Positions 9,743 to 44,612 of a stretch of DNA of 49,526 nt are shown here, piece by piece. The position numbers and the translations under genes were made by a program. The notes beneath the pieces were generated by a model. It was not told the DNA's origin and ran no database searches. It saw only the letters and a list, made by a program, of their open reading frames with translations. Source of the stretch: a phage; sequence record PZ296778.1. One strand, written 5' to 3'. Every line of letters begins with the position of its first letter. The first letter of the stretch is position 1.

Positions 9743-10405
9743 ATGCACTTGCCTAATGGTTCTCAAATTTTCATCGGCGTTAATATGGGTGAGCCAATTA
9801 GCGCGACTCAAATCAGCAATGCTGATAATCCTGTTTTTACAACCAAAAACACTCAAAGCATCAAAAAAGGCGCTTATGTTCTTATTGAAATATCTTCTTG
9901 GGGCAAACTTGTTAGTCGAGTGCTTCGAGTTAAGGAAGTATCAGATAATGCAAGTGTTACTCTTGAGGGTGTTAGCACTAAAGATACAAACGTATTTCCA
10001 GAAGGACAGAACACAGCAACTTTCCGAGAAGTGAAATCTTGGGTAGAGGTTCCTTGCGTACAGGATCTTGCGCAGGACGGCGGCGAGCAACAGTATTACA
10101 CTTATCAGTGTTTGGCTGATGACCATGAGCAGCAGTTGCCGACCTACAAGAGCGCGGTTTCTCTTACCTACACTTTCGCTCATGAATATGATAACCCGAT
10201 TTATCCGATCTTGCGCGAGGCTGAGGAATCCGGCGACGTAACCGCTTTGCGTATGTACGTGCCGAAAGCTAAAGAGATGCGTTGCTGGGCTGGCGTATTG
10301 TCTTTTAATGACATTCCGCAAACAACTATGAACGAAATGGAAACTGTTTCCCTTTCTGTATCTCTGAAAGGCCGATTCACGTTCTTACCTTCCGACGTTA
10401 AGTAA
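9743..10405 (+). CDS. major tail protein (putative)
   Basis: 220 aa; very strong RBS aaggagga; followed by terminator; immediately upstream of the chaperone and tape measure genes. Confidence 0.5.
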   Translation: MHLPNGSQIFIGVNMGEPISATQISNADNPVFTTKNTQSIKKGAYVLIEISSWGKLVSRVLRVKEVSDNASVTLEGVSTKDTNVFPEGQNTATFREVKSWVEVPCVQDLAQDGGEQQYYTYQCLADDHEQQLPTYKSAVSLTYTFAHEYDNPIYPILREAEESGDVTALRMYVPKAKEMRCWAGVLSFNDIPQTTMNEMETVSLSVSLKGRFTFLPSDVK

Positions 10406-10410
10406 AACAA

Positions 10411-10431
10411 GGGGCGTTGCGCCCCTTTTTT
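10411..10431 (+). terminator. intrinsic terminator after major tail gene
   Basis: GGGGCG-ttg-CGCCCC hairpin followed by T6. Confidence 0.7.
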
Positions 10432-10470
10432 CATTCCTGTAAAATCAATCTATCAAATAAATTAATTCCA

Positions 10471-10490
10471 CTTTTAACAAAAAGTGCTAT
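10471..10490 (-). promoter_or_regulatory. conserved intergenic motif copy R2 (inverted)
   Basis: CTTTTAACAAAAAGTGCTAT directly abutting the RBS of the G-like chaperone gene. Confidence 0.6.
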
Positions 10491-10504
10491 AAGGAGATCT
10501 TAAG

Positions 10505-10822
10505 ATGGCAAAGATGAAACTAACGTTAGGCCCACTGCCTGATTTTAAGCTGCCTGTTTCTTTCGTGCTTCCAAATGGTGATGAGCAAGTTATTGTTTTT
10601 ACCGTGCGCCACAAGAAGGCAAGCGAAATTCACGAACGATACACAGCAGAAAAGCCGATGAGCGACGTAGAAATGATCACCTTCCTTGCTTCCGGTTGGG
10701 ATCTGGAAGATGAATTTAACGAGGAAAACGTTGCTAAATTGCTGGATTATTACCCGTCTGCGTCATTATCGCTGACTGGTCATTATATGAAAGCACTTGC
10801 GGGGCAGCGGGTAAAAAACTAA
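10505..10822 (+). CDS. tail assembly chaperone (G-like)
   Basis: 105 aa directly upstream of the tape measure gene; ends at a slippery A_AAA_AAC heptamer. Confidence 0.7.
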   Translation: MAKMKLTLGPLPDFKLPVSFVLPNGDEQVIVFTVRHKKASEIHERYTAEKPMSDVEMITFLASGWDLEDEFNEENVAKLLDYYPSASLSLTGHYMKALAGQRVKN

Positions 10823-11139
10823 AGCGGGCGGTTTACCTGTTTTACCTCAAGCCGCCAACTGACGCACAATTAGAGGCCGTCGGCCTATCCCGTTCAGACT
10901 ACGAAGGGGAGGAGCCGCCGGAGGTAATTTTTGATGAATCAATGTTTCAATCTTGGGATCTGTTTTGCGCTATGCAGACGCAATGGAGATCGACTAGCGG
11001 CAGTGTGTATGGGTTCGACTATAACGTTTTGCCTATGCTTTTTGACATTTACAAGATTGAGGATCGGGAGATGGCGCTAAATGATTTGCGCATCATGGAA
11101 CAAAAGGCGCTAGAAATGATTCATTCAAACAAAACATAA
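10505..11139 (+). CDS. tail assembly chaperone GT-like fusion (-1 programmed frameshift product)
   Basis: The -1 frame from 10819 is open with no stop for 120 nt and in frame with the track ORF 10942-11139; slippery site A_AAA_AAC at 10813-10819. Confidence 0.6.
10813..10819 (+). other. -1 ribosomal frameshift slippery heptamer A_AAA_AAC
   Basis: X_XXY_YYZ pattern in the zero frame of the G-like ORF, 1 nt before its stop codon. Confidence 0.6.
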
Positions 11140-11159
11140 GCGCCGCGAGGCGCTTTTTT
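11139..11159 (+). terminator. intrinsic terminator after chaperone GT region
   Basis: GCGCC-gcga-GGCGC hairpin followed by T6, just upstream of the tape measure RBS. Confidence 0.55.
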
Positions 11160-11178
11160 AATATCTGGAGGTTTTAAA

Positions 11179-13860
11179 ATGGCTGAAAAATACGCTGGCC
11201 TAACGCTAGGCGTTGACGTGTCGCAGGTCAACAATGCTGTTAAATCATTGCAGCAATTCAAGAAGGCAAACGACGACGCAAAAAAAAGCGTTAATGAATT
11301 TGTTGATTCTGAGGTTGTGGCCCGACAGCAAGCAAAACAGCTTGCCGAAGAACTGGCGCGCCAGAAAGCAGAATTTAAGAAAATCCAGGAGTCAATTGAT
11401 CCCACTGCATCAAAGATGGATAAGCTGCGAAAGGCAGCGACACAGCTTGATGCGCTATGGAAAAAGGGCGTTGTTCCTGATCAGACTTTTTTTGAGCTTG
11501 GGGCAATTCTTGAGACGCAGCAAAACAAGCTGATCGCAACCAAAAAAGCGATGACAGAGGAAGGCCGCGCGGCGCTTGAGGAATCAAAGAACAAGGCGCG
11601 TGCAGCGGAAGAGGCTAAAAAATTCGTCCAGGCTTTGCGTGAGCAGGAAGAAGCAGCAGGAAAAAGCAAGTCTGAATTGCTGGAAATGAAAGCGGCACAG
11701 CTTGGAGTTAGCCAGGAGGCAGCACCTTACATCGCAAGGCTGAAAGAGCAGGAAAAGCAGATCCAGAAACTTGGGATTTCTACAGGCCAATACAAACAAG
11801 CAATGGCGCAATTGCCAATGCAGATCACAGACGTGGTGACTTCACTTGCTTCTGGTATGCCAGTTTGGTTGGTCGCAGTCCAGCAGGGTGGGCAGATCAA
11901 GGATTCTTTTGGTGGTGCATCCAATGCTTTAAAAGCGTTGCTATCTTTCCTGAATCCGGTAAACGTGGCGTTTGGCTTGCTTTCCGGCACGCTGGCAATT
12001 GCTGCATATAATGCCTACAAAGCACAGACAGAGCTTGAGGCAATTAAAAAAACCGTTCAGGAAACAACTGGCTTGAGTGGTGAGTTTGCCGAAAAGATTG
12101 CTATAGGAATCCAGGAGCTTTCCGACAAGACAGGCGAAAGCGCCGAAGATCTGGCAAAGGCTTACATAACAACGAAAGACGGCGCGAGCGAGGCGATTAA
12201 AAAACTGGTTGACGTTGGGATGACTTATGATGACGCAAAAAAGAAAGTCAACGAGTACAAGGGCGCGTCTAGCTTTGTCAGCTTGAATAACGAAATTGCA
12301 AACCACAAAAACAAAGTCCTTGAGTTGGGCGATTCGTGGTATGAGGTTTTGAAAGCGAAGCGTGATTACGCTTCCCCGTCCGGCGGCCTGTTAGGTAAGG
12401 AGCTTGGCTATGTTAACCCTATGCTTAAGTTTGCACTTAACACTTATGAAGACATTGGAAAGGTCGTAAAAGATGCGAATAAGGACATGGCGGAACGAGC
12501 GGAGCGAATCGACAAAGAAAACCTGGCCTTAAACAGAGTGCGCGCAGCACAGGAGGCTTTAAACAAAGCCATTGAGGATCAGAAAAATGTGGCGCGTTCG
12601 GCTGATGAAGAACTGAAAAAGCGCGCGGCTGAAAACGTGGAGTTTAGGCGCAAAGAGCTTGAGGAAATCAAGAAGCAGGAGCAGAAAAAGAAAGAGGCTA
12701 AAGGGGGAATAGTTCGCGGCCCTACTGAGCAGCTTGATAAAGAGTTGTACGTTTTAAAGGCGCAACTGGAAACTCTTAAAGAGCATCGCACTGTTAACGA
12801 TGTTATTTCTCGCCAGCGTAAATCTTTATGGAGCATCGAAAAGCAGATCGAGATCCTGGAGAATGCGCAGAGCAAGCGTAAATTGACCGGAGCGGAACAG
12901 GCGCTACTAAACGAGCAAAAGGCCGTTCTTGAAATGGCAAGACAAAAAGCTGAGCTAGGGGATCAGATTGTTTTGCAGGAGCGCAAAAACAAGCTGGAGC
13001 AAGATAGTCTTAAGTTTATCCGTGAAACTGAGGCTGCTATTGATGCGATTGGCCTTAAGCAACTTGGCTACACTGAAAAGCAGATCGAGCGTGAGCTAGA
13101 GTTACGCAAGCTGCGCACCGACTACGAGGCGCAAGGCGGAAGCGTTAGCGACGAAGTTTTTCAGCAAATGGAGACGAAACTTAAGCTGTATTACCAGGCA
13201 CAAGACGAGGCGCAAGGCAACTGGTTAGCCGGAGCAAAGAACGCATGGGAGCTATTCGCGGAAGATGCAAACAATGCCTATGGCAATGTTCAGCAGATCG
13301 CAAGCGAGGCGTTAAACGGCCTTACAAACCAATTAGCGAATTTTATCGCTACTGGCAAGGCAAACTTTAAAGACTTCTCGACGGCTATCATCAAAATGAT
13401 TATCCAGATGATCACGAAAATGGTCGTCTTTAATGCGTTATCTGGCCTGATGGGTGGTCAAACCTGGACGATGGGGAGCTTGCTTAAGAATATTGGCGGA
13501 TTTGCTGGCGGTGGATACACTGGAGACGGCGGGAAGTATGAGCCAGCCGGAATTGTCCATAAAGGTGAATTTGTCATGACGAAGGAGGCGACGCAGCGTA
13601 TCGGGGTAGGAAACTTGTACCGCATGATGCGAGGCTATGCTAACGGCGGCGTTGTTGGTAGTTCCGGCTATACTGGCGGTGGCGCTGTAACTGGTGGAGC
13701 ACCTCAATTTAACATCGGCGGGATTGATGTTAGCATCACTAACGGAAACGATCCGAAGGGCATCGAAACTGGTGTTAAGATGATCTTTACTGATATGATT
13801 AAACGTTCCTGTATGCAGGGCGGCGAGGTTTACGAATTTGTTATGAGCAAGCGAGGTTGA
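11179..13860 (+). CDS. tail tape measure protein
   Basis: 893 aa; long coiled-coil-rich region; glycine-rich C-terminus; follows the G/GT pair. Confidence 0.85.
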   Translation: MAEKYAGLTLGVDVSQVNNAVKSLQQFKKANDDAKKSVNEFVDSEVVARQQAKQLAEELARQKAEFKKIQESIDPTASKMDKLRKAATQLDALWKKGVVPDQTFFELGAILETQQNKLIATKKAMTEEGRAALEESKNKARAAEEAKKFVQALREQEEAAGKSKSELLEMKAAQLGVSQEAAPYIARLKEQEKQIQKLGISTGQYKQAMAQLPMQITDVVTSLASGMPVWLVAVQQGGQIKDSFGGASNALKALLSFLNPVNVAFGLLSGTLAIAAYNAYKAQTELEAIKKTVQETTGLSGEFAEKIAIGIQELSDKTGESAEDLAKAYITTKDGASEAIKKLVDVGMTYDDAKKKVNEYKGASSFVSLNNEIANHKNKVLELGDSWYEVLKAKRDYASPSGGLLGKELGYVNPMLKFALNTYEDIGKVVKDANKDMAERAERIDKENLALNRVRAAQEALNKAIEDQKNVARSADEELKKRAAENVEFRRKELEEIKKQEQKKKEAKGGIVRGPTEQLDKELYVLKAQLETLKEHRTVNDVISRQRKSLWSIEKQIEILENAQSKRKLTGAEQALLNEQKAVLEMARQKAELGDQIVLQERKNKLEQDSLKFIRETEAAIDAIGLKQLGYTEKQIERELELRKLRTDYEAQGGSVSDEVFQQMETKLKLYYQAQDEAQGNWLAGAKNAWELFAEDANNAYGNVQQIASEALNGLTNQLANFIATGKANFKDFSTAIIKMIIQMITKMVVFNALSGLMGGQTWTMGSLLKNIGGFAGGGYTGDGGKYEPAGIVHKGEFVMTKEATQRIGVGNLYRMMRGYANGGVVGSSGYTGGGAVTGGAPQFNIGGIDVSITNGNDPKGIETGVKMIFTDMIKRSCMQGGEVYEFVMSKRG

Positions 13861-44072: not shown

Positions 44073-44612
44073 ATGAAAAAATACACTTTCGAACTATGGG
44101 GCAAGAAGTACGAATTAATCACCAGCAAGCCGATTGTTATCGTTGACCTGGACGGCACACTATCGGACGGATCGCATCGTTTGCATTTGCTGCCAACTGA
44201 AAACTTGCACCTTACGGAATCGTGGAGCGAATTTAACAGGGCCGCCGCCGGAGATTCACCGATTAAAAGCACGATCGCGGTTATTAACGGTTTGTGGGTG
44301 TCGGGATTTGCCATCGTCATCTTGACCGGACGCAGCGACGAGGTGCGCTATGAAACCTGCAAATGGTTGAATGAGAGCGGCGTGAAGTTTGACGAAATCA
44401 TCATGCGCCGCCAGGAGGACAACCGAAAGGATACGGTTATTAAAGAAGAAGCCTTGCGCGCTATTGGCCTGGAAAATATTGTTTGCGCCTTTGACGATTC
44501 GCCGAACGTTGTTAAGCACTTCCGCAGCCTGGGAATCACAACCTATCAGGTCACGGAATACGACAAGCCGCACGCTCACCTGCAATCTCACGGCGTGGAG
44601 TGTTTAAAATGA
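44073..44612 (+). CDS. HAD-superfamily phosphatase (polynucleotide 3'-phosphatase / nucleotidase-like)
   Basis: HAD motif I VDLDGTL, motif II VILTGR, motif IV AFDDSPNVV; start at MKKYTF (track start is TTG). Confidence 0.55.
   Translation: MKKYTFELWGKKYELITSKPIVIVDLDGTLSDGSHRLHLLPTENLHLTESWSEFNRAAAGDSPIKSTIAVINGLWVSGFAIVILTGRSDEVRYETCKWLNESGVKFDEIIMRRQEDNRKDTVIKEEALRAIGLENIVCAFDDSPNVVKHFRSLGITTYQVTEYDKPHAHLQSHGVECLK

What the first reader, a model, noticed from the sequence alone, without database searches (positions are those of the whole stretch)
10813..11139. Programmed -1 frameshift joining the tail chaperone G-like ORF to a downstream T-like ORF
The G-like ORF ends one codon after a canonical slippery heptamer A_AAA_AAC (10813-10819). 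The -1 frame is open from 10819 for 120 nt and runs in frame into the track ORF 10942-11139, giving a GT-like fusion of about 210 aa. This is the conserved G/GT arrangement upstream of tape measure genes; the ORF track shows the two parts as unrelated ORFs.
Basis: partly seen in the sequence, partly recalled or inferred. Interest (0 to 1): 0.5.

Follow-up and report, generated by a model that had tools for sequence, protein, structure and literature searches.

The report
Tail chaperone G/GT programmed frameshift
This T1-like coliphage makes a short tail-assembly chaperone and, when ribosomes occasionally slip back one base at A_AAA_AAC, a longer fusion of it; the reading is almost certainly right, but it is ordinary and already annotated in sister phages.

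Summary
The window is a Warwickvirus (Drexlerviridae, T1-like), identical here to phage orkinos. Three genes lie in order: major tail protein (9743-10405), a 105-aa chaperone (10505-10822, Pfam Phage_TAC_4) and the tape measure gene (11179-13860). The chaperone ends ...GTA AAA AAC TAA, so A_AAA_AAC (10813-10819) is in phase and abuts the stop. The -1 frame is open from 10738 to 11139 and has no ATG/GTG/TTG before 10942. The Pfam DUF1799 match begins at 10885, upstream of that ATG.

Comparative evidence is strong. 1086 phage records encode the 211-aa conceptual fusion in two pieces. The -1 frame has no stop in any of 87 distinct relatives. Linker substitutions concentrate at -1-frame third positions (339/247/872). 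The heptamer plus adjacent stop is kept in 67 of 98 loci, while the neighbouring Arg codon varies freely. Distant relatives carry G_GGA_AAC at the same place. In Dhillonvirus relatives the possible shift window is exactly the heptamer.

A hairpin 7 nt downstream has modest support. The frameshift is already annotated as a joined CDS in TLS (tfmS) and Klebsiella phage Sushi, and is mentioned for Stevie and U136B. Orkinos-type records omit it. The verdict is a real, ordinary, already known feature, useful only as an annotation fix. No experiment has shown the fusion protein.

The parts
10493..10498 (+). Shine-Dalgarno AAGGAG, 6 nt upstream of the G start codon
   Evidence: Read directly from the sequence.
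10505..10822 (+). G-like tail assembly (tape measure) chaperone ORF, 105 aa plus TAA; the product of standard decoding
   Evidence: ORF list and translation. Pfam PF08748 Phage_TAC_4, E = 5.2e-31, full length. Annotated 'tape measure chaperone' in orkinos.
10813..10819 (+). Slippery heptamer A_AAA_AAC, with zero-frame codons AAA at 10814-10816 and AAC at 10817-10819
   Evidence: In phase. It is the only in-phase X_XXY_YYZ in the 10738-10819 overlap. It is conserved with an adjacent stop in 67 of 98 related loci. The preceding codon changes amino acid (V/A/E/T) but always ends in A.
10820..10822 (+). Zero-frame stop TAA directly abutting the heptamer; possibly part of the signal
   Evidence: In 96 of the 98 loci a stop (TAA or TGA) sits two codons after the slip-prone Lys codon, or after GGA in the G_GGA_AAC relatives. 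The other two loci, L045 and L085, are aberrant.
10827..10856 (+). Candidate stimulatory hairpin GGCGGUUU / AAGCCGCC: 8 bp, 14-nt loop, 7-nt spacer after the heptamer
   Evidence: RNA fold gives -13.4 kcal/mol, but z = 0.18 against dinucleotide shuffles. It is more stable than 95.6% of synonymous recodings (p = 0.044); p <= 0.002 in TLS, T1 and Hanrivervirus relatives, and absent in DTL, Sd1 and others. 74.9% of cells are paired against 30-50% in slid controls, but the covariation is not decisive.
10819..11139 (+). T segment in the -1 frame: 106 codons plus TAA, reached only by frameshift; contains DUF1799
   Evidence: The frame is open from 10738 to 11139, with no ATG/GTG/TTG before 10942. 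Pfam PF08809, E = 1.5e-12, starts at T residue 23, which is nt 10885. The third-position substitution bias is 339/247/872 over the 41 linker codons. A109, Y114, P118, L123, G127 and D132 are conserved upstream of the ATG.
10505..11139 (+). Conceptual GT fusion, 211 aa: 10505-10819 joined to 10819-11136, with base 10819 read twice
   Evidence: PHROG 17368 (213 positions) matches G at positions 1-107 and T at 109-211. tblastn finds 1086 records covering at least 80% of the fusion in two pieces. The orthologous joined CDS are TLS tfmS and Sushi gp15.
9743..10405 (+). Context: major tail (tube) protein gene upstream
   Evidence: Pfam Phage_tail_3, E = 2.7e-62.
11179..13860 (+). Context: tape measure protein gene downstream
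   Evidence: Pfam TMP_2 (E = 8e-36) and Tape_meas_lam_C (E = 2e-22).

Best explanation
This is the tail assembly chaperone pair of a T1-like siphovirus, expressed by programmed -1 ribosomal frameshifting.

Most ribosomes that start at ATG 10505 terminate at TAA 10820 and make the 105-aa G-like chaperone. A minority slip back one base while tRNA-Lys and tRNA-Asn occupy AAA AAC (10814-10819), re-pairing on AAA AAA (10813-10818). They then read CUA AAG CGG... from 10819 to the TAA at 11137, producing a 211-aa GT-like fusion whose C-terminal half is a DUF1799 domain.

By analogy with lambda gpG/gpGT (inferred, not shown here), many G copies coat the tape measure protein. The rare GT copies use the T domain to recruit the major tail protein, and neither protein ends up in the virion.

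A_AAA_AAC is a weak slip site in E. coli compared with A_AAA_AAG. That fits a low GT:G ratio. The adjacent stop and a hairpin 7 nt downstream may tune the ratio.

What is shown: the anatomy, the coding signature of the -1 frame, conservation of the site, and family membership. What is inferred: the existence of the fusion protein, the efficiency of slipping, and the roles of the stop and the hairpin.
For: - Anatomy: exact phase and an open -1 frame.
- Gene order: tube protein, chaperone, T segment, tape measure.
- Families: G is Phage_TAC_4. T is DUF1799, with the match starting upstream of the only ATG. PHROG 17368 covers both halves as one 213-position family.
- Breadth: 1129 phage records match the conceptual fusion, and 1086 cover at least 80% of it in two pieces.
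- Open frame: in 87 distinct relatives the -1 frame has 0 stops over about 105 codons, while the other two frames have 0-9 or more, nearly always several.
- No conserved start: the first possible start codon in the T frame falls at inconsistent positions, codon indices 4, 7, 17, 22, 31, 41, 67, 74 and others.
- Coding signature: the linker substitutions by -1-frame codon position are 339/247/872, matching the control from the end of G, 445/272/891.
- Slip site under selection: AAA AAC is kept with an A before it, while the amino acid of that preceding codon varies (V/A/E/T) and the adjacent Arg codon uses CGC, CGA, CGG and CGT.
- Distant relatives: Pseudomonas and Ralstonia homologues have G_GGA_AAC TGA at the same position. 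In Dhillonvirus homologues a -1-frame TGA lies directly before the heptamer, so the shift can only occur on those 7 nt.
- Prior annotation: joined CDS in TLS and Sushi.
[quoted passage not shown] U136B (PMC8104045). Review of lambda G/GT and of A_AAA_AAC being less shifty than A_AAA_AAG in E. coli (PMC5009743).
Against: - No protein-level evidence for the fusion in this phage or, as far as I found, in any T1-like phage.
- The heptamer alone is not statistically unusual.
- The hairpin is not significant against dinucleotide shuffles and is missing in several subfamilies.
- Some relatives (Webervirus A_AAA_GTT/GTC, others A_AAG_GTC or A_AAG_GAT) lack a canonical tandem-slip heptamer. The exact slip mechanism may therefore be single-tRNA slippage rather than tandem slippage.
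- There is no detectable sequence similarity to lambda GT (hhalign probability 0.4%). The functional analogy therefore rests on gene position and family names.
Confidence: 0.9

Rival explanations
1. The downstream ORF is an independent 65-aa gene initiated at ATG 10942, as annotated in JLBYU19, tunus and many other records. There is no frameshift, and the 120-nt gap is non-coding.
For: Several GenBank and RefSeq records annotate it this way. GGAGG lies at 10920-10924.
Against: - The GGAGG is 17 nt from ATG 10942, which is too far. Its good spacing is to an out-of-frame ATG at 10934.
- The Pfam DUF1799 match begins 19 codons upstream of the ATG.
- The 'gap' shows a clear -1-frame third-position substitution bias and conserved residues.
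- The first start codon in this frame is not positionally conserved among 87 relatives.
- Gene callers give T homologues arbitrary N-termini, with lengths of 50-145 aa.
Confidence: 0.04
2. The same fusion is made by transcriptional slippage. RNA polymerase adds one A in the A6 run (10813-10818), so that a subset of mRNAs carries G and T in one frame.
For: An A insertion would give the same reading-frame change. Dhillonvirus relatives have A7.
Against: - From my own knowledge, productive slippage by bacterial RNA polymerase needs runs of about 8-9 or more A or T. A6 is too short.
- Homologues with G_GGA_AAC (Pseudomonas, Ralstonia) and with A_AAA_GTT or A_AAG_GTC (Webervirus, Rogunavirinae-like) keep the same arrangement without a long homopolymer.
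- The conserved feature is the codon phase (xxA AAA AAC), which matters to ribosomes and not to the polymerase.
Confidence: 0.03
3. This is a variant of the main explanation. The shift is a single-tRNA slip of peptidyl-tRNA-Lys on A_AAA, possibly promoted by the nearby stop, rather than a tandem two-tRNA slip. The AAC codon is only partly relevant.
For: In 96 of 98 loci (all except the aberrant L045 and L085) an A-preceded Lys codon, or GGA in the G_GGA_AAC relatives, sits two codons before the stop. In 27 loci the following codon cannot re-pair in the -1 frame: GTT, GTC, GCC or GAT. With a slip at the Lys codon, the Webervirus junction reads K-S-L-R-R, which aligns length for length with K-N-L-K-R here (reasoning from the sequences).
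Against: AAC is strictly kept in 69 of 98 loci, including the two distant relatives whose P-site codon differs (G_GGA_AAC). This argues that the A-site codon matters in this lineage.
Confidence: 0.15
4. The frame break is a sequencing or assembly error, or a pseudogene, within a single 211-aa gene.
For: None beyond the formal possibility, since homopolymer runs are error-prone.
Against: The same two-frame layout is found in 1086 independently sequenced phage records and in 96 of 98 loci inspected. No in-frame fusion of 200 aa or more was seen among the 150 best T-domain representatives out of 1.84 billion proteins, apart from one compositional artefact.
Confidence: 0.01

Closest known systems
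Phage TLS tfmA/tfmS and the tape measure chaperones of other T1-like phages (Klebsiella phage Sushi gp14/gp15, Citrobacter phage Stevie, E. coli phage U136B)
   Same: These are orthologous genes; the conceptual fusion is 63% identical to TLS. They share the position between the tube and tape measure genes. TLS and T1 have the same A_AAA_AAC TAA site, the same junction sequence ...KN|LKRAVYL... and a similar downstream hairpin. The frameshift is already annotated as a joined CDS or mentioned in print.
   Different: Only minor differences. In this phage the inner part of the hairpin is disrupted (CTC where relatives have CAG), so the stem is weaker. Its closest GenBank record, orkinos, does not annotate the T part at all. 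Sushi uses A_AAA_GTT instead of A_AAA_AAC.
Bacteriophage lambda gpG/gpGT (Levin et al. 1993; Xu, Hendrix and Duda 2004, 2013, 2014, as summarised in PMC5009743)
   Same: Both have two ORFs between the major tail protein gene and the tape measure gene. In both, the second ORF lies in the -1 frame without its own start, and an in-phase heptamer sits near the end of the first ORF. The expected outcome is a short product in excess plus a rare fusion.
   Different: No detectable sequence similarity (hhalign probability 0.4%), and different Pfam families (Phage_TAC_4 and DUF1799). The lambda site is G_GGA_AAG with the G stop 15 nt downstream, whereas here A_AAA_AAC abuts the stop. The proteins are smaller: 105/211 aa against lambda's 140-aa gpG and a conceptual GT of about 279 aa.
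E. coli dnaX -1 frameshift (A_AAA_AAG, upstream SD-like element, downstream stem-loop)
   Same: Both are a tRNA-Lys-based A-rich heptamer decoded by E. coli ribosomes. This locus also has a candidate stem-loop at a 7-nt spacer.
   Different: The A-site codon is AAC, which is much less shift-prone in E. coli (PMC5009743). No upstream SD-like stimulator was established. In dnaX the shift shortens the product, whereas here it extends it.

Membership tests
Conserved tail assembly chaperone G/GT frameshift of long-tailed dsDNA phages (Xu et al. 2004) | Two consecutive ORFs located between the major tail protein gene and the tape measure gene | tested here: met
   Phage_tail_3 at 9743-10405, G at 10505-10822, T to 11139, and TMP_2/Tape_meas_lam_C at 11179-13860.
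Conserved tail assembly chaperone G/GT frameshift of long-tailed dsDNA phages (Xu et al. 2004) | The second ORF lies in the -1 frame, overlaps the end of the first, and lacks a conserved start codon or RBS of its own | tested here: met
   The -1 frame is open from 10738 to 11139. The first ATG/GTG/TTG is at 10942, with GGAGG 17 nt upstream. The position of the first start is inconsistent across 87 relatives.
Conserved tail assembly chaperone G/GT frameshift of long-tailed dsDNA phages (Xu et al. 2004) | An in-phase slippery sequence (X_XXY_YYZ) within the overlap | tested here: met
   A_AAA_AAC at 10813-10819 is the only in-phase heptamer in the overlap.
Conserved tail assembly chaperone G/GT frameshift of long-tailed dsDNA phages (Xu et al. 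2004) | The arrangement and the coding capacity of the extension are conserved in relatives | tested here: met
   1086 records carry the fusion in two pieces. There are 0 stops in the -1 frame in 87 distinct relatives. Third-position bias is 339/247/872. Conserved residues lie upstream of the ATG.
Conserved tail assembly chaperone G/GT frameshift of long-tailed dsDNA phages (Xu et al. 2004) | Both G and a low-abundance GT fusion are made, both are required for tail assembly, and both are absent from virions | not testable with these tools
   This needs proteomics and genetics. No such data for T1-like phages turned up in the literature searches.
Pfam PF08748 Phage_TAC_4 (phage tail assembly chaperone) | Score above the curated gathering threshold over the full domain | tested here: met
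   107.9 bits against a cut-off of 21.1, covering residues 1-105 and profile positions 1-124 of 124.
Pfam PF08809 DUF1799 (TLS TfmB-like domain) | Score above the curated gathering threshold | tested here: met
   48.0 bits against a cut-off of 26, covering T residues 23-101 and profile positions 3-80 of 80.
PHROG 17368 (family built from fused chaperone products) | Both halves match one family end to end | tested here: met
   G matches positions 1-107 (E = 1.6e-39) and T matches positions 109-211 (E = 1.8e-52) of 213.
Lambda gpG / gpT sequence families | Detectable sequence homology to lambda G or T | tested here: not met
   hhalign of alignment A1 against lambda GT gives probability 0.4%. There is no PDB relative by sequence. 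The locus therefore works like lambda G/GT but is not a member of its sequence families.
dnaX-type stimulated -1 frameshift | A downstream stem-loop 5-9 nt after the heptamer that is under selection | tested here: inconclusive
   An 8-bp stem lies at a 7-nt spacer. It gives p = 0.044 against synonymous recodings here and p <= 0.002 in TLS, T1 and Hanrivervirus relatives, but it is absent in DTL, Sd1 and L046. 74.9% of cells are paired against 30-50% in slid controls, but the covariation score equals that of the -1 slide.
dnaX-type stimulated -1 frameshift | An upstream internal Shine-Dalgarno-like stimulator | not tested
   G-rich stretches (GCGGGG, GCGGG) lie 2-12 nt upstream, but they encode the conserved A-G-Q-R motif. 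I ran no test that separates the two constraints.
Transcriptional slippage (programmed RNA polymerase stuttering) | A long homopolymeric A or T run at the shift site, conserved as a run | tested here: not met
   The run is A6 here. Homologues have GGGAAAC, AAAAGTT or AAAGGTC at the same site.

The most novel reading that the evidence does not exclude
In this chaperone family the zero-frame stop codon is an integral, selected part of the frameshift signal. It always lies two codons after the slip-prone Lys codon, which puts the heptamer-to-stop distance at 0, against 15 nt in lambda and a mean of 26 nt in SEA-PHAGES chaperones. On this reading, a 'shifty stop' together with a lineage-specific hairpin sets the G:GT ratio, and could make that ratio responsive to termination efficiency or to host release-factor or tRNA status. 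The alternative is that the stop's position is only a by-product of where the G protein has to end.
Probability: 0.25. Interest if true: 0.3.

Novelty: already known. Interest (0 to 1): 0.1.

Why it matters
The main value is annotation hygiene. The closest GenBank record, orkinos, leaves the T part unannotated. Many Drexlerviridae records split the locus into two unrelated 'hypothetical' or mislabelled 'tail length tape measure protein' ORFs with arbitrary starts. A joined CDS, 10505..10819 with 10819..11139, would be the correct feature.

Biologically this is another instance of the near-universal G/GT strategy for fixing the stoichiometry of tail chaperones. The only mildly interesting points are:

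- the strict placement of the stop directly after the heptamer across this family;
- the replacement of the canonical heptamer by A_AAA_GTY or A_AAG_GTC in some clades;
- a downstream hairpin that is selected in only some subfamilies.

Tried and rejected
- The conceptual fusion could not be submitted to the search of protein representatives or structure prediction, because it spans two frames and is not an exact window sequence. I therefore made no structure and ran no fold search.
- The search for homologous proteins with the fusion returned only three T-part proteins whose N-termini are gene-caller artefacts. That is too few for an AlphaFold alignment.
- A profile search of the PDB found nothing, and NCBIfam has no model.
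- hhalign against lambda GT found no homology.
- The representative search with T (318 hits at E <= 1e-3) listed, among its best 150, only short stand-alone ORFs of 50-145 aa, plus one 2059-aa acidic repeat protein that is a compositional artefact of the EEPPE stretch.
- A dinucleotide-shuffle test of the hairpin was negative (z = 0.18). I replaced it with a synonymous-recoding control.
- I considered and rejected an overlapping zero-frame ORF from ATG 10934, which has a well-spaced GGAGG. That frame carries 1-9 stops in all 87 relatives.
- A whole-window scan for other heptamer-plus-open-frame candidates gave only spurious overlaps and one ATGA start/stop overlap at 44609.
- Two literature searches using strict term combinations returned nothing.

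Full report
**Identity of the window.** Region 10400-11200 is 100% identical to Escherichia phage orkinos (MN850586; Drexlerviridae, Tempevirinae, Warwickvirus). It is at least 99% identical to 34 records in the phage collection. The orkinos record annotates 'tape measure chaperone' (window 10505-10822) and the tape measure protein. It leaves the stretch between them unannotated. Other near-identical records annotate a separate 65-aa ORF at the position of 10942-11139.

**Checking the observation.** The ORF from ATG 10505, preceded by AAGGAG at 10493-10498, ends ...CGG GTA AAA AAC TAA.
- A_AAA_AAC at 10813-10819 is therefore in the X_XXY_YYZ phase, and the stop at 10820-10822 abuts it.
- The -1 frame has no stop from 10738 to the TAA at 11137-11139, and it contains no ATG, GTG or TTG before 10942.
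- The conceptual fusion is 105 + 106 = 211 aa.
- The motif alone is unremarkable. There are 27 AAAAAAC in the window against 21 +/- 5 expected. About 0.09 in-phase heptamers are expected in the 27-codon overlap.
- The signal comes from the configuration and its conservation, not from the motif.

**What the pieces are.**
- The G ORF is Pfam Phage_TAC_4 (E = 5e-31, full length).
- The -1-frame segment is Pfam DUF1799 (E = 1.5e-12). The match starts at residue 23 of the segment, which is nt 10885, 19 codons upstream of the only ATG.
- The flanking genes are the tube protein (Phage_tail_3) and the tape measure protein (TMP_2 and Tape_meas_lam_C).
- PHROG 17368 is a 213-position family. It matches G at positions 1-107 and T at positions 109-211, so it was built from fused products.

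**Comparative evidence for translation through the junction.**
- tblastn with the conceptual fusion finds 1129 phage records. Of these, 1086 cover at least 80% of it, always in two pieces.
- I inspected 17 annotated loci and 80 IMG/VR loci. With the window itself this makes 98 loci.
- In 87 distinct sequences the -1 frame has no stop for about 105 codons past the G stop. The other two frames carry 0-9 or more stops, nearly always several.
- The first possible start codon in the T frame sits at inconsistent positions.
- Over the 41 linker codons (10819-10941), differences from the window fall 339/247/872 on -1-frame codon positions 1/2/3. This matches the control from the end of G, 445/272/891.
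- In a protein alignment reaching down to 27% identity, A109, Y114, P118, L123, G127 and D132 are invariant or nearly so. All lie before M147, the residue encoded by the ATG at 10942.
- L106 is also invariant, but this is forced by its overlap with the stop codon (C + TA or TG).

**Evidence for the slip site.**
- 67 of 98 loci have AAAAAAC directly followed by TAA or TGA.
- Within that class the codon before AAA encodes V, A, E or T but always ends in A. The neighbouring Arg codon uses CGC, CGA, CGG and CGT freely. This is selection on nucleotides in a fixed phase.
- Pseudomonas and Ralstonia homologues have G_GGA_AAC TGA at the same position.
- In Dhillonvirus homologues (36-38% identity) a -1-frame TGA lies immediately before the heptamer. 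The only place a -1 shift can occur there is the heptamer itself.
- Webervirus and some other clades have A_AAA_GTT/GTC, A_AAG_GTC or A_AAG_GAT. An A-preceded Lys codon two codons before the stop is thus the most general feature. A single-tRNA slip remains a possible mechanistic variant.

**Possible stimulators.**
- A hairpin (GGCGGUUU, 14-nt loop, AAGCCGCC; 10827-10856) starts 7 nt after the heptamer, with a free energy of -13.4 kcal/mol.
- It is not significant against dinucleotide shuffles (z = 0.18).
- Against synonymous recodings that keep the T protein sequence, it is more stable than 95.6% of samples here. In TLS, T1, Hanrivervirus, Changchunvirus and K50 it beats 99.8% or more.
- No such structure exists in DTL, Sd1, L046 and others.
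- On 46 sequences, 74.9% of cells pair, against 30-50% for slid registers. The covariation score equals that of the -1 slide.
- The hairpin is therefore plausible and lineage-specific, but unproven.
- According to the review PMC5009743, A_AAA_AAC is much less shift-prone than A_AAA_AAG in E. coli. This fits a low GT:G ratio such as lambda's roughly 1:30.

**Rival explanations.**
- Independent initiation at 10942 is contradicted by the spacing of the GGAGG, by the domain match and conservation upstream of the ATG, and by the absence of a conserved start.
- Transcriptional slippage is unlikely on an A6 run. It cannot explain homologues with GGGAAAC or AAAAGTT at the same site.
- A sequencing error is excluded by recurrence in more than 1000 genomes.
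- The 150 best of 318 T-domain representatives (from 1.84 billion proteins) are short stand-alone calls of 50-145 aa. None is an in-frame G-T fusion.

**Comparison with what is known.**
- The TLS record annotates tfmS as a two-piece joined CDS over the orthologous locus.
- Klebsiella phage Sushi does the same.
- The U136B announcement describes manual annotation of the slippery-sequence chaperone (PMC8104045).
- The general phenomenon is that of Xu, Hendrix and Duda 2004, cited in those papers and in the PMC5009743 review.
- The locus works like lambda G/GT but shows no detectable sequence similarity to it. In lambda the G stop lies 15 nt after G_GGA_AAG, whereas here the distance is 0.

**Verdict.** The feature is already known for this phage family. 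Its value is a corrected annotation, so interest is low.

Noticed in passing
window 10409-10435 and 11138-11162: Terminator-like GC hairpins followed by T-runs bracket the G-T pair. One lies right after the tube protein stop and the other right after the T stop. The Sushi record annotates terminators at the same two positions. They may attenuate transcription and help set tube: chaperone: tape measure stoichiometry.
   Followed up: partly
window 10920-11080: GGAGG at 10920-10924 sits 9 nt upstream of an ATG at 10934 in the zero frame, which opens a 48-aa Cys- and Leu-rich ORF running to 11080. That frame has 1-9 stops in all 87 distinct relatives, so the ORF is not conserved and is probably a by-product of the EEPPEV/FDE codons.
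   Followed up: yes
L006, L015 and L063-L084 (Webervirus); L054, L055 and L060; L019: Some clades lack the canonical heptamer and carry A_AAA_GTT/GTC/GCC, A_AAG_GTC or A_AAG_GAT before the stop. This suggests single-tRNA-Lys slippage, or a less efficient site, in those lineages. L069 sits within the same sequence group and has AAAAAAC.
   Followed up: partly
L016 and L017 (Dhillonvirus AV129 and JL1), locus positions 751-763: A -1-frame TGA lies immediately upstream of A_AAA_AAC and the zero-frame TAA lies immediately downstream. The frameshift window is therefore exactly 7 nt, a natural pinpointing of the slip site.
   Followed up: yes
window 44603-44612: T_TTA_AAA is followed directly by TGA, with 52 open -1 codons beyond it, which looks like a second frameshift candidate. 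In fact the next small gene starts at ATG 44609 in an ATGA start/stop overlap, so this is ordinary translational coupling.
   Followed up: yes
GenBank/RefSeq records of relatives (H10, H11, H13, H16 and others): RefSeq and PHROG-derived annotation names both chaperone pieces 'tail length tape measure protein'. Gene callers give the T piece arbitrary N-termini, for example 133-136 aa proteins that start in the -1 frame inside G.
   Followed up: partly
P0041 (2059 aa, from the representative library): An acidic protein with about 10 repeats matched the T segment in 10 stretches. On inspection the match is to the low-complexity ...GGEEPPENTF... stretch, so it is compositional and not homologous.
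   Followed up: yes
L029 (IMGVR_UViG_2974737826_000001): This IMG/VR contig has exactly the window's length (49526 bp), but its chaperone locus is only about 81% identical at protein level and sits at a different offset. I treated the equal length as a coincidence and did not check it.
   Followed up: no
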